A stretch of DNA of 64,000 nt from Eledone cirrhosa. Its lineage: Eukaryota. The notes beneath the pieces are model-generated. The model was not told the DNA's origin and did not search any database. It worked only from the letters and a program-made list of their open reading frames with translations. The position numbers were made by a program, and so were the translations under genes. The stretch lies in NCBI GenBank assembly GCA_964016885.1, contig OZ024741.1, positions 46,066,001 through 46,130,000 of the forward strand, in the 5' to 3' direction. Numbering within the stretch: position 1 is the first letter of the stretch; each line of letters begins with the position of its first letter. Shown here piece after piece: positions 8,134-49,192 of this stretch.

Positions 8134-8506
8134 CCTGTGTCAGTGTTGAACAAAAAGGTGACGTGGTTGCCTTAACACCGTATGGCATAAATTCAGGCTG
8201 TTCAGTTTGTTGACAAACGAACAAAGCAGCGCTATAATAAGCGTCTGCTAAACTGATGCGTGCATATATGTATGTGTACCTGCATGTATGTATATATATA
8301 TATATATATATACATGCTACTGTACGTCTGTATACATATATGTATGTACGTATACATACATACTTACATTTAAGTAAGTGCCATACTAAGAGTGAGAAAT
8401 GAAATTTCGTTTTTCGTTTTCATTTTTTTCAACCTATATATATATATATATATATATATAAGGAAAAGCGAAGTAGTTTCAGATGTTCAAGTCCTTTAAT
8501 GATAAT

Positions 8507-8580
8507 GCTGTGATATATATTTCAATGACGACACTGGCCACACTGTTCTGTGTGCGAGTGTCGTGTCATCATCAGACAGC
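8507..8580 (-). ncRNA. Type I hammerhead-like motif with extended stem II (family D, inverted arm)
   Basis: Reverse complement: GCTGT-CTGATGA-TGAC..GACACT...AGTGTCGTCA-TT-GAAA-TATATA-TC^ACAGC. Confidence 0.7.
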
Positions 8581-9565
8581 TTGTTACTGGACGGGCGTAA
8601 TAGTAACTTTCGGCAGGATAAATACGCGGAAACAAAAAATAAGATAAACCCCTATTTTCCTGCACAAAATCGCATTTGAACAGAAGCCTCCTCAATTCAA
8701 TCTATACATGGACAGATGTACAATCATATGGATCATTTTGCATATATGTACTCTGTGTTTTTGCATTTATTCACTATTGGTTCTGTTCTTTTCTTTTCTT
8801 TTGTGTACTTTATGTCTGTTTTTTTTTTATTTTGTTCCATGTGATGGAAATTATGACCGTGTAACAGATTGACTAATGCCTTGAACCCTGTAGTCTGCCC
8901 TCCGTTATAATGTACGGCACTGTCGTTCAATATGTGGATAGAGTAACTGTGACACTAGAATCCCTCTCAGAACTTATTACTTAAACATCTCTCTCCATAT
9001 TATTTACTCACTCCAATCTATATTTTTACTCAATCCGAATTATCACTTGAAAAATTTTTGAATTTAGAATTTTTTAATTTTTAGTTGTTTAATTTATAAT
9101 CTCTAATATTTGATTTAGGATTTTAATTTTTAATTTTTATTTCCAAATCTTAACTTACAATGTAAAACCATGGTACCTAGAATTAAGTTAATTTTCCCTT
9201 ATGAGTTGATGGTCAGTCTTGCTGTCAACGCTTAGTGAAAGGTAGTATTATGACCTATAAAAACTAACACCCTCCCATCCCCTCTGGCTTTCGGCTGACT
9301 GCCACAGTAGTGATAGGTAGCAGTAAACTTTGGTAGGGCATAGGTGGGCCATTGTTTTAGCTGAGAGGGTGAACTGGCAGCGAATTTCGTTAAAATCTGC
9401 GGTGGCTAATGGTCAACTTCCTTCGGACATGCGCTTGCGCAGACCGGTGGGGGTGAATTGGTACTCACAAGGGAACGGATGAAAAACCCAAAAGCACGAA
9501 CTTCATCCGTTCCCATGTCGATTCAATTTGGATTGCCTCGGAAACATAAGCTTATTATGTAACAA

Positions 9566-9639
9566 GCTGTCTGATGATGACACGACAGTCGCACACAGAA
9601 CAGTGTGGCCAGTGTCGTCATTGAAATATATATCACAGC
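9566..9639 (+). ncRNA. Type I hammerhead-like motif with extended stem II (family D)
   Basis: GCTGT-CTGATGA-[stem II]-GAAA-TATATA-TC^ACAGC; stem I GCUGU/ACAGC. Confidence 0.7.
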
Positions 9640-9787
9640 ATTATTATTAAAGGACTTGAACATCTGAAACTACTTCGCTTTTCCTTATTCGATATTTACT
9701 CCGTCACTCCTATGTGGAAAAAGTACGTTGAGTGCTTGAATTGAATTGCATCAATGTTAACCCTAATATATATATATATATATATAT

Positions 9788-10215
9788 ACACTCCCAGAGG
9801 TACCCGGCGTTGCTCAGGTATTAAATAGCAGTTATGTATACCATTTATGTCAATACTTCAGTGCTGCTTCAAAAACTATACTTTTACAAAATCATCGGAT
9901 TTTTCCCAAAGGGCGTTTTTGCACCCAGGGGACCCCTACTCAATATGTGCCAATTCACATTCATCTGTAGAACAAACGTAGCCCATGTGTCAAGTTTTGT
10001 GAAAATCGGTTGCGAACTCCAGAAGTTATGACGTTTTGTTGCATTGCACTGCAGTGCTTCAGTCAACTCCAAGGAAGTGGTTAAAGGGGGTTATGTGCCG
10101 AGAGGCCCTATAATCAATATCTGGAAAAATGAAGGTGACCATGACCATCCGGAGTACATAAGTAATCTATGTCTTTAGTTTGGTGAAAATACTGTAGAAA
10201 TGCATAAGGTTTACA
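9788..10215 (+). mobile_element. Non-autonomous Helitron/Helentron-like repeat
   Basis: 5' TACCCGGCGTTGCTCAGG and internal AAGTTT..TGAAAATCGGTT motifs typical of such elements; next to microsatellites. Confidence 0.4.
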
Positions 10216-46011: not shown

Positions 46012-46669
46012 TATCAGTTCTTAGATATGCCAGCTCTGTGTTTATAGTATTGATGGTATCAGAGCCTTGGGACACACACACACACACATATATATATATA
46101 TATATATATATATATATATATATATATATATAGGAAAAGGTATGACCCCGACGGCAGAGCTCAAACCCTTTCGACGGCTATTTCTGGAGTCCAGAAATAG
46201 CCGTATATATATATATGTGTGTGTGTGTGTGTATATATGTATATATATATATATATATATATATATATATATATATATATATATATATATATATAATTCA
46301 ATGATATTAAATAACTGGAAACTATATTTATAAAACCATATTTATTCTATTATGTATATTTCAAGGGTACCAAAAATTTTGGTACGCTATCATCAGATAA
46401 AATACAAAATGTTTTATAAATATTTGACATGACCAAAGATAATATACCTTAACTGTTCAAGTTATGTCTGGAAAGTCTTCTACATATATATATATATATA
46501 TAAAGAATTAGTATATCTACCAACATATGTATACAGATGCATACCTATGCTAGCAAATATATATGTTTTGTCTTAGTAACTTTGTGGTTCTATGCAAGGA
46601 GATGCAGAAAAATTATATGAAAGACGTAGATAAGAAAGTTATGAAAATTGACTTACTTACTAAAATGTC

Positions 46670-46750
46670 ACTCCAACTAATTAGTTTCTGTAAGGGAATA
46701 AATATGGTTACGGAGCGTATCGACAGAGAAACCTTACGTCATCAGGGAGT
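46670..46750 (-). ncRNA. Type I hammerhead ribozyme with large loop II (family C, inverted arm)
   Basis: Reverse complement: ACTCC-CTGATGA-CGTAAGG...CCTTACA-GAAA-CTAATTAG-TT^GGAGT. Confidence 0.8.
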
Positions 46751-47323
46751 CTATTCTCAGCTAAGCTTCCAGGCAATGCGAGGACACTGGGAATTATATA
46801 AAAATAATTCAGTGGATGGAAAAAAGCGAGCGGGGACTAAATTCCAAGACATTGAAAAATTCACTGCCTACTTGGTCAGTGAAATTTTAGTAAGTAAGGC
46901 AATTTTCATAACTTTCTTATTTACGTCTTTCATATAATTGTTCTGCATCCCCTTGCATAGAACCACAAAGTTACTAAGACAAAACATATATATTTGCTAG
47001 CATAGGTATGCATCTGTATACATATGTTGGTAGATATACTAATTCTTTATAATTATCTCCAAATTATTTGTTGAGCAAAACTGCCGAAATTACTACTATG
47101 GTTCATGGTAGTGTCTAGGCCCTTGTCTTAATAGCACCCCACTCCTCACTGATTAACCTCAGTGTCACGTGATTGATTCTTTTGAATTTGCCACTGACCA
47201 AATAGCCAGTGAATTTTTCAATGTCTTGGAATTTAGTCCCCGCTCGCTTTTTTCCATCCATTGAATTATTTTTATATAAGTTCCCAGTGTCCTCGCATTG
47301 CCTGGAAGCTTAGCTGAGAATAG

Positions 47324-47404
47324 ACTCCCTGATGACGTAAGGTTTCTCTGTGGATACGCTCCGTAACCATATTTATTCCCTTAGAGAAACTAATTAGTTG
47401 GAGT
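47324..47404 (+). ncRNA. Type I hammerhead ribozyme with large loop II (family C)
   Basis: ACTCC-CTGATGA-CGTAAGG...CCTTAGA-GAAA-CTAATTAG-TT^GGAGT; palindromic stem III. Confidence 0.78.
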
Positions 47405-48286
47405 GAAATTTTAGTAAGTAAGTCAATTTTCATAACTTTCTTATTTACGTCTTTCATATATATATATATATAGTTATGTAATAAACAACATAAGGCAATT
47501 ATTCCATTTACCAGTGGTTTCTTAAAAGCAAAAAATTTTGCTTTATCAGAAAGAAAAAATCTTGGTCTGTTTATTGAATTTGGATTTTAAAAACGAAAAT
47601 GCAATCTATATGAAAGTGAGGCTGGAGAAAGAAGAAGGAAAGGAAAAATAAAATAAAAACACACATGCAAACACAGACACACACACACAAATGCATACAA
47701 ACACACCCCACCACCACCCCACTCTCAAGAGCGTGAAATTAATAAACATTCGTTGTACTGCCTCTCTGTTTTGTTCCTGTTCAAATTTTCCATTATATAT
47801 ATATATATATATATATATATATATATATACATACACTGATACATACACACACACATATACACATATATATGTGTATATAAATACACACACACACATACAT
47901 ATACACATATATACATACGCACATAAATATCAACACATCCATACATACACATACATATATACAACCACACACACATGTATACACACATATATATATATAG
48001 AAATAGAAATATATATATATATATATATATATATATATATATATATATATATATATATATATATGTGCATACACATACACATACATAGCCATACATACAT
48101 ACATATACATACATACATACATGCACACAATCATACCTATATACACACGTACATACATACACATACATAAATGCATACATATGCATGTACAAAATTAGAA
48201 AAATATACACACACATATATATTCACACACATATATATATATATATATATATATATATATATATATATATATATATATATATATAT

Positions 48287-49192
48287 AAACAAATAACGAA
48301 ACGAAATTAAATTTCGTTTCGCTTCTAACTCACTTTTGTATGACTGACGCTTAAACAATTAAGTTAAAGTGTACATCTACATATGTATACGGAAGTATTA
48401 GTATGCATATAAATACACACATGTATACATATGTACATGTACTGAATTTTTCACTGGACACTTTACAGTGAGTGTCCAGCTAGTCTGTATGTAACCACAC
48501 AGGGTTTTAGAGTCATACGAGTTTGACCGGGTTTTAGAGTCAAACTCGTATGACTCTAAAACCCGGTCCGTCTGTGTGGGTACATACAGACTAGCTGGAC
48601 ACTCACTGTAAAGTGTCCAGTGAAAAACTCAGTACATGTACATATGTATACATGTGTGTATTTATATGCATACTAATACTTCCGTATACATATGTAGATG
48701 TACACTTTAACTTAATTGTTTAAGCGTCAGTCATACAAAAGTAAGTTAGAAGCGAAACGAAATTTAATTTCGTTTCGTTATTTGTTTTTATCGTTTCCGC
48801 TGAACCGGTGCGTACAATGACTCACGTTCTATGCAAATTAGTCTACCCACTACTAATTTTCATAGAAAAAGCATATAACGATATATGCTTTTACAATTCT
48901 CTAGAGAAGCCGGAAGATGGGTATATATTGCTGATGAGATGTAATAACATCGAAACTAGTCCAATATTCCTGTCTGGCTCTCTGGAGAATAGAGGAAATG
49001 TGTTTCCTTGAAAACTCGTATGACTCTAAAACCCGGTCCGTCTGTGTGGTTACATACAGACTAGCTGGACACTCACTGTAAAGTGTCCAGTGAAAAACTC
49101 AGTACATGTACATATGTATACCTGTGTGTATTTATATGCATACTAATACTTCCGTATACATATGTAGATGTACACTTTAACTTAATTGTTTA
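48287..49192 (+). mobile_element. Retrozyme-like family B: about 1.4 units of 470 bp with a ~240-bp inverted 5' arm, in (TA)n
   Basis: AAACTCGTATGACTCTAAAACC at 48542 and 49012; 48287-48527 is the reverse complement of about 48539-48788; layout homologous to family A. Confidence 0.88.
48925..48967 (+). ncRNA. Canonical type I hammerhead ribozyme (family B)
   Basis: ATATTG-CTGATGA-GATGT AATA ACATC-GAAA-CTAG-TC^CAATAT. All core nucleotides and the G-C stem II closing pair are present; GUC cleavage after 48961. Confidence 0.93.

What the first reader, a model, noticed from the sequence alone, without database searches (positions are those of the whole stretch)
8425..48300. Independent retrozyme insertions end at the same unit position, not at the cleavage site
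Seen: 8434 (...TTTTTTCAACC|TATA), 12733 (reverse complement ...TTTTTTCCGTTTAT|ATAT), 22909 (...TTTTTTCCGTTTAT|ATAT) and the family B inverted arm at 48287 (reverse complement ...TTATTTGTTT|ATAT) all stop at the T-rich tract just before TTATCGTTT. That site is about 115-140 nt upstream of the HHR and runs into (AT)n. Inference: reverse transcription is primed at a fixed U-rich/UA site by a nicked (TA)n target, on a circular or multimeric RNA, or at a terminator-defined 3' end.
Basis: partly seen in the sequence, partly recalled or inferred. Interest (0 to 1): 0.7.

Follow-up and report, generated by a model that had tools for sequence, protein, structure and literature searches.

The report
Retrozyme copies carry Penelope insertion signature
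Four separate insertions of a small hammerhead-ribozyme repeat stop at the same point of the repeat unit next to (TA)n, about 275-310 bases past the predicted ribozyme cut, which likely marks where a borrowed Penelope-type reverse transcriptase starts copying inside the RNA.

Summary
Observation confirmed, with corrections. Four insertions (A1, A2, A3, B) of 420-470 bp tandem type I hammerhead units end at ...TTAT|CG, abutting (TA)n. That point lies 117-140 nt before the next hammerhead core and 274-311 nt after the predicted cut. In public contigs the best-supported loose end is this base running into (AT)n (53 contigs in one run, 1 in another). [quoted passage not shown] Best reading: non-autonomous retrozymes copied in trans by a PLE RT/GIY-YIG enzyme that likely nicks (TA)n and starts inside the RNA, just 3' of a conserved hairpin, as shown in vitro for the anole PLE. 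A terminator-defined end is disfavoured. Circular versus multimeric template is unresolved; one array has mosaic units. The class and the mechanism are known; I did not find the junction evidence linking them in my seven literature searches.

The parts
7344..8437 (+). Insertion A1: 2.3 tandem units of 471 bp, 5'-truncated, (TA)n on both sides; 3' end 8433-8437
   Evidence: units differ by 1 mismatch in 466 plus a TA indel
12733..13551 (-). Insertion A2: 1.9 units of 421 bp, TA-rich on both sides; 3' end 12733
22257..22277 (-). A3 inverted stub: 21 nt of the unit's 3' end, running 3 nt past the common end point
22287..22909 (+). Insertion A3 direct arm: 5'-truncated unit plus one full 429-bp unit; 3' end 22909 into (TA)n
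48285..48526 (-). Insertion B inverted arm; 3' end at the common site, so it carries a 66-69 nt 'tail' absent from the direct arm
48540..49192 (+). Insertion B direct arm (unit 470 bp); 3' end at a second site, after TTAATTGTTT, into TA-rich flank
48191..48286 (+). Left flank of B, repeated directly at about 49230-49314: possible long target-site duplication
   Evidence: flank alignment score 54, against 14-20 at the four other loci
7618..7662 (+). Type I hammerhead motif, A1 unit 1 (core 7625, predicted cut after 7655); U-U at the base of stem II
   Evidence: stems read by eye
8089..8133 (+). Type I hammerhead motif, A1 unit 2 (predicted cut after 8126)
13421..13465 (-). Type I hammerhead motif, A2 unit 1 (predicted cut at 13428)
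13000..13044 (-). Type I hammerhead motif, A2 unit 2 (predicted cut at 13007)
22597..22641 (+). Type I hammerhead motif, A3 (predicted cut after 22634)
48925..48967 (+). Type I hammerhead motif, B: 6-bp stem I, 5-bp stem II, 2-bp palindromic stem III, GUC cut after 48961
   Evidence: stems read by eye
22876..22902 (+). Predicted 12-bp hairpin ending 7 nt before the A3 3' end; equivalents in A1, A2 and B (48295-48323, minus)
   Evidence: z -2.83, -1.94, -2.46, -4.21; segments were chosen around the hairpin
22516..22523 (+). ATGCAAAT, kept in all six hammerhead-bearing units (7537, 8008, 13538-, 13117-, 22516, 48831); the label 'octamer' is recalled
39546..40745 (-). Penelope-like element, 5'-truncated inverted arm with GIY-YIG region; 3' end about 24 nt into the ORF, into (TA)n
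40745..45628 (+). Penelope-like element, direct partial tandem (broken RT-EN ORF, about 800-bp pseudo-LTRs, hammerhead-like cores 41174 and 45257); 3' end about 148 nt into the ORF, into a short (TA)n

Best explanation
These are non-coding tandem hammerhead units (non-LTR retrozymes) whose insertions end at one main unit position beside (TA)n, likely because a Penelope-type RT/GIY-YIG protein supplied in trans nicks a (TA)n target and starts reverse transcription inside the RNA, just 3' of a predicted hairpin, not at the ribozyme cut. Shown: the ends, flanks, inverted arms, second end site and hammerhead motifs. Inferred: (1) tandem loci are transcribed through unit junctions; (2) the protein binds near the hairpin and the nicked target's ...ATA end anneals by 2-3 nt to UAU or UA, mostly after GUUU; (3) copying runs on through one or more further units and stops at variable points (5' truncation); (4) when both target strands prime, a head-to-head inverted pair forms, and use of two start sites leaves a 'tail' on one arm, as at B. 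The template is more likely an uncleaved multimer than a single circle, but this step is the weakest.
For: 5 of 6 window 3' ends lie within about 4 nt of one site and none at the predicted cut. The top loose end in run X1 is that base going into (AT)n (53 contigs); X4 shows it in 1 contig. 5' starts are scattered. B and A3 have head-to-head inverted arms, and B's two ends differ by 66-69 nt, both following TTAWTTGTTT. Partial tandem, inverted 5'-truncated copy, optional tail and (TA)n bias are the described PLE signature (PMC8557442; PMC3846280). The anole PLE nicks AT-rich DNA on both strands and starts at two internal sites 111-118 nt into its ORF, independent of hammerhead cleavage (PMC11167929). 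A PLE with the same layout, two ends about 124 nt apart and both at (TA)n lies in the window. The hairpin keeps a U-A (family A) versus C-G (family B) pair (read by eye).
Against: No RNA or enzyme data. The retrozyme units share no similarity with the window's PLE pseudo-LTR beyond AT-rich words (best E 0.01, 13 nt). That PLE's ends are AC-rich, not U-rich, so the partner element is not identified. The B tail (66-69 nt) is longer than the 30-40 nt described. A1 lacks the GTTT motif. One search hid 156 loose-end rows and skipped 135 of 451 bases, including the TA-rich part and the edge of the region equivalent to B's second site; contig counts are not insertion counts. The anole start site needs no homology to the target, while these junctions show 2-4 nt of possible microhomology. 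No target-site duplication was seen at A1, A2 or A3.
Confidence: 0.7

Rival explanations
1. The template is the monomeric circle made by hammerhead cleavage and ligation. The RT starts at the same internal site and rolls round it. This differs from the best reading only in the template.
For: Related animal retrozymes accumulate as circles (PMC7229834). A1's two units are 99.8% identical and B's copies 98.7-98.9%. A circle has no 3' end, so it needs an internal start.
Against: A2's units differ at 12 bases plus indels. At three sites (A3 coordinates 22579, 22686, 22797) A2's terminal unit matches A3's terminal unit, while the other allele is also seen in other copies (22579 C is about 55% of summed depth). 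This points to a mixed template, template switching or later gene conversion. Family A hammerheads have a U-U at the base of stem II, so cleavage is uncertain.
Confidence: 0.25
2. The RNA itself ends at this site (Pol III T-run terminator, hairpin-U terminator or processed 3' end). A LINE or PLE primes at that true end, and tandems arise by template jumps.
For: A hairpin plus T5-T7 run lies just before the end. Schistosome hammerhead repeats appear to be Pol III transcripts (review PMC6765202).
Against: Family A copies keep 7-9 nt beyond the T6/T7 run. The A3 stub contains 3 nt past the site. B also ends 66-69 nt earlier. All internal junctions read on as CG without added bases.
Confidence: 0.12
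3. All copies inherit the end from one founder with a (TA)n tail and are primed within that tail, like SINEs with microsatellite tails, so the ends are not independent.
For: 5 of 6 ends run into TA-rich sequence and share TAT with it.
Against: Families A and B are only about 63% identical over the alignment yet share the end. Internal junctions lack (TA)n. B has a second end and A3 a shifted stub.
Confidence: 0.08
4. DNA-level rolling-circle transposition (Helitron-like) or recombination between TA tracts fixes one end.
For: Tandem arrays with one fixed end and a subterminal hairpin; Helitron end features are recalled from memory.
Against: Head-to-head inverted arms, a tail pair and conserved hammerheads fit PLEs. 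No Helitron-type termini were tested or noticed.
Confidence: 0.04

Closest known systems
Animal non-LTR retrozymes (Cervera and de la Pena 2020, PMC7229834; Li, Clavereau and Pollet 2026, 10.64898/2026.07.22.740005)
   Same: Non-coding, low-GC tandem units of a few hundred bp, each with one type I hammerhead; dispersed dimers and partial trimers; proposed PLE dependence; a long duplication where one is present.
   Different: In the parts I read, priming is left open (target-primed or small RNA) and the PLE link rests on co-occurrence and pseudo-LTR similarity. Here the insertion junctions give the evidence, and no pseudo-LTR homology was found. Units are slightly longer than the 150-450 bp quoted. 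Expression and cleavage are untested.
Poseidon element of Anolis carolinensis, PAc (Frangieh et al. 2024, PMC11167929)
   Same: Genomic ends away from the hammerhead cut, two end sites giving a tail, AT-rich target, stem-loop near the start site.
   Different: PAc is autonomous. It starts in an AC-rich stem-loop about 85-92 nt past its cut (from the paper's positions) with a short tail. Here the element is non-coding, the site is U-rich and 231-311 nt past the cut, and the tail is 66-69 nt.
EN+ PLE clades with a Zn-finger-like linker (Neptune, Nematis, Hydra, Naiad; PMC8557442), and non-autonomous Chlamys such as MRC1
   Same: Partial tandem plus inverted 5'-truncated arm, (TA)n bias, head-to-tail non-autonomous copies. 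The window's PLE has a C-terminal EN with a CX4CxxC linker and CCHH-like residues.
   Different: The retrozyme units encode nothing and show no similarity to the window's PLE. The clade of that PLE was not tested by a tree; its motifs fit Neptune/Nematis better than Hydra.

Membership tests
non-LTR retrozyme | Tandem units of a few hundred bp, low GC, no ORF | tested here: met
   Units 420-471 bp; GC about 0.3; no frame of 150 aa or more over the units
non-LTR retrozyme | One type I hammerhead per unit | tested here: met
   Core, stems I-III and UH found by pattern and by eye in 6 of 6 full units. Rfam gave 0 hits at gathering score. Minimum-energy folds did not adopt the full ribozyme. Family A has a U-U at the stem II base.
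non-LTR retrozyme | Self-cleavage and circular RNA in vivo | not testable with these tools
   No RNA holder listed; needs bench work
non-LTR retrozyme | High copy number, dispersed | tested here: met
   Four loci in 64 kb; 9775 contigs of run X1 laid on one unit (not a copy number)
PLE-type insertion (non-autonomous) | Partial tandem with 5' truncation | tested here: met
   4 of 4 loci
PLE-type insertion (non-autonomous) | Inverted 5'-adjacent copy | tested here: met
   2 of 4 loci: B arm and A3 stub
PLE-type insertion (non-autonomous) | Optional tail from two start sites | tested here: met
   1 of 4 loci clearly (B, 66-69 nt, longer than the 30-40 nt described); A3 differs by 3 nt
PLE-type insertion (non-autonomous) | (TA)n or AT-rich target | tested here: met
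   5 of 6 3' ends abut TA-rich flank; (TA)4 or longer covers 4.3% of the window
PLE-type insertion (non-autonomous) | Sequence similarity to an autonomous PLE pseudo-LTR | tested here: inconclusive
   None to the one PLE in the window; other PLE families of the genome were unavailable
PLE-type insertion (non-autonomous) | Mobilisation by a PLE RT/EN | not testable with these tools
   Needs an in vitro TPRT assay
Autonomous EN+ PLE (39546-45628) | RT plus C-terminal GIY-YIG EN, pseudo-LTRs, inverted arm | tested here: met
   RVT_1 E 2.6e-4, below the curated cut-off; 183 homologues, best 67% to an Octopus vulgaris protein; EN region 35% to GIY-YIG-annotated P0114, E 5e-41; repeats. The ORF is broken.
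Pol III SINE-like element | Internal A/B boxes and end at a T run | tested here: inconclusive
   Ends lie 7-9 nt past the T runs in family A; A/B boxes were not searched
Helitron-like element | TC/CTRR termini, insertion in AT (recalled) | not tested
   No call made

The most novel reading that the evidence does not exclude
Animal retrozymes carry their own origin of reverse transcription: a short conserved hairpin-GUUU-AU element that recruits a Penelope RT in trans, without pseudo-LTR homology, and lets a circular or multimeric RNA with no usable 3' end be written into (TA)n microsatellites from both strands. This would be the missing priming step of the retrozyme cycle and a portable cis signal.
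Probability: 0.3. Interest if true: 0.72.

Novelty: new member of a known kind. Interest (0 to 1): 0.48.

Why it matters
How animal retrozyme RNA is primed and which retroelement moves it are stated as open in the defining paper (PMC7229834, discussion). The 2026 preprint argues for PLEs from phylogeny only. These junctions show the PLE mechanical signature on the retrozymes themselves and name the exact nucleotide and hairpin to test in an existing in vitro PLE assay. The mechanism (internal start away from the hammerhead cut) is already published for an autonomous PLE, so a specialist would find this expected but useful rather than surprising.

Tried and rejected
No whole genome is held, so a true genome-wide end map was not possible. 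Rfam: 0 hits. No RNA holder listed, which says nothing on expression. Pattern scans: 0 loci in metagenome contigs with a 3'-end pattern. An octamer-plus-hammerhead pattern gave 4 metagenome, 0 viral and 1 prokaryote-genome loci; all 5 lacked similarity to the units (best E 0.056) and were dropped as chance. Runs X5 and X6 showed no loose end at the site among the rows displayed; X6 had no cover there. 4 of 24 listed runs were laid. Target-site duplications: none found at A1, A2, A3 or the PLE. Similarity of units to the window's PLE pseudo-LTR: none beyond AT-rich words. The fold of the whole A3 locus is dominated by pairing between repeats and was not used. Earlier scan findings: nothing returned. 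A search for a newt satellite 2 promoter paper gave no text on the octamer, so that link stays recalled.
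Full report
What is there. The window is microsatellite-rich animal DNA. The closest named relatives of its Penelope-like RT are Octopus vulgaris proteins (67%), so the host is likely an octopod; this is inferred. It holds four insertions of a related non-coding repeat: A1 (7344-8437, +), A2 (12733-13551, -), A3 (22257-22909) and B (48285-49192). Units are 420-471 bp. Over aligned columns A2/A3 are 95% identical, A1 is 85-86% to them and B 74-76% (63% over alignment length). 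Each of the 6 full units has a type I hammerhead motif with a 2-bp palindromic stem III (stems read by eye). B is canonical; family A has a U-U at the base of stem II. Rfam gave no hit. This fits non-LTR retrozymes as defined in PMC7229834 (passages and sections 13 and 17 read).

The observation. They fall at TTAT|CG, with the last TAT shared between element and (TA)n flank. A1 has one mismatch there and B is 2 T short. The junction lies 117-140 nt before the next hammerhead core and 274-311 nt after the preceding predicted cut in family A. The flanks and 5' starts differ, so the insertions are separate events. Two further 3' ends were missed: the B direct arm ends at 49192, 66-69 nt earlier, and a 21-nt inverted stub at A3 ends 3 nt later. 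In all, 5 of 6 ends lie within about 4 nt of one site. The post hoc chance of 4 of 5 is 4.6e-5 (uniform) or 2.8e-4 (any TAT site).

Test outside the window. No genome is held. I laid contigs of 4 of 24 listed public runs on one A3 unit. In X1 (9775 contigs laid, 633 partly) the best-supported loose end is base 22480, the T of TTTAT, followed by (AT)n, in 53 contigs. The other five X1 rows shown (16-46 contigs) continue in unit-like sequence, by my reading. X4, a different organism code and study, shows the same end in 1 contig. None of the 18 rows shown lies at the predicted cut. Limits: 156 rows were hidden, 22285-22419 was skipped, contigs are not insertions, X1 may be the window's own source, and X5 and X6 showed no such row. 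The result supports a main end site but is not a full end map.

The architecture points to Penelope-like elements. All four loci are partial tandems with variable 5' truncation. B is a head-to-head inverted pair in (TA)n. Its two ends both follow TTAWTTGTTT and differ by a 66-69 nt extension, and its flanks share a possible long duplication. A3 has a small inverted stub. Partial tandem, inverted 5'-truncated copy, optional tail and (TA)n bias are the described PLE signature (PMC8557442, passages and section 11; PMC3846280, passages). A broken PLE at 39546-45628 shows the same layout, with ends about 24 and 148 nt into its ORF, both at (TA)n. For the anole PLE, purified protein nicks AT-rich DNA on both strands and starts reverse transcription at two internal sites. 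Hammerhead mutants do not change the product, and genomic ends match those sites (PMC11167929, parts 1-2 of 4 read; its supplementary figures were not seen).

Mechanism. Most likely a PLE protein acting in trans nicks (TA)n and primes inside the retrozyme RNA, 7-10 nt 3' of a predicted 12-13 bp hairpin. The hairpin is present in both families (z -1.9 to -4.2 on chosen segments) with one U-A versus C-G pair change. Copying then passes through further units and truncates. Priming from both strands, at the same or the second site, would give the inverted arm and tail. All enzymatic steps are inferred. Against: the units show no similarity to the window's PLE pseudo-LTR, whose ends are AC-rich; A1 lacks GTTT; the tail is longer than described.

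Rivals. A terminator-defined RNA end is disfavoured, because family A copies run 7-9 nt past their T6/T7, the A3 stub runs past the site, and B has an earlier end. Circle versus multimer stays open. A1's units are 99.8% identical, as either predicts. A2's units differ at 12 bases plus indels, and at three sites its terminal unit matches A3's terminal unit, with the other allele present elsewhere in the family. That suggests a mixed template or later conversion rather than one circle. An inherited (TA)n tail and Helitron-like rolling are less likely.

Novelty. Retrozymes, their proposed PLE dependence (10.64898/2026.07.22.740005, parts 1-3 of 5 read; supplements closed) and PLE internal priming are published. 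Seven searches did not show a paper mapping retrozyme insertion ends. The main text of the O. vulgaris repeat annotation has no 'hammerhead' or 'ribozyme' (PMC13282606, passages). Subscription papers, Repbase/Dfam entries and unseen supplements may already hold these families. Verdict: a real feature, a new member of a known kind, with junction evidence that makes an open priming question testable. Interest 0.48.

Noticed in passing
window 7537, 8008, 13538-, 13117-, 22516, 48831: ATGCAAAT is kept in all six full units, 36-40 nt after the end junction where that junction is present; 6 of the window's 8 copies of this word lie in units. From memory it resembles the snRNA-type octamer, so it may be part of an internal promoter.
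   Followed up: partly
window 39546-45628: Broken Penelope-like element with inverted arm, about 800-bp pseudo-LTRs, an Asn-rich insert in the ORF and a CX4CxxC linker. Its hammerhead-like cores (39795-, 41174, 45257) have a clear stem II but no evident stem I.
   Followed up: partly
window 45636-45745 and 45960-46015 (-): A near-perfect inverted repeat directly after the PLE, and a separate type I hammerhead-like motif on the minus strand between TA tracts; probably another PLE remnant.
   Followed up: no
window 765-1065 (-): Two 152-bp tandem copies that translate as a GIY-YIG-like fragment (CDRC..YIGST..H..H), next to a long 18-bp minisatellite; likely another PLE fragment.
   Followed up: no
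window 48191-48286 and 49230-49314: About 45 bp of unique sequence plus (TA)n is repeated on both sides of insertion B, with 37 extra TA-rich bases at the right junction: a possible long target-site duplication.
   Followed up: partly
window 48509-48554: B's head-to-head junction is a palindrome whose loop is itself an inverted piece of the unit, suggesting fold-back during synthesis.
   Followed up: no
window 23408-36588 (-): Several nested or tandem non-LTR retrotransposon copies (AP endonuclease plus RT, with gag-like ORF1), GC about 0.5-0.6.
   Followed up: partly
window 52295-55568: A 34-bp minisatellite with 96 copies at 97% match.
   Followed up: no
window 22278-22286: The spacer between the A3 stub and direct arm (TATAAAAACT-like) resembles the 3' end of the window's PLE; probably chance in AT-rich DNA.
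   Followed up: no
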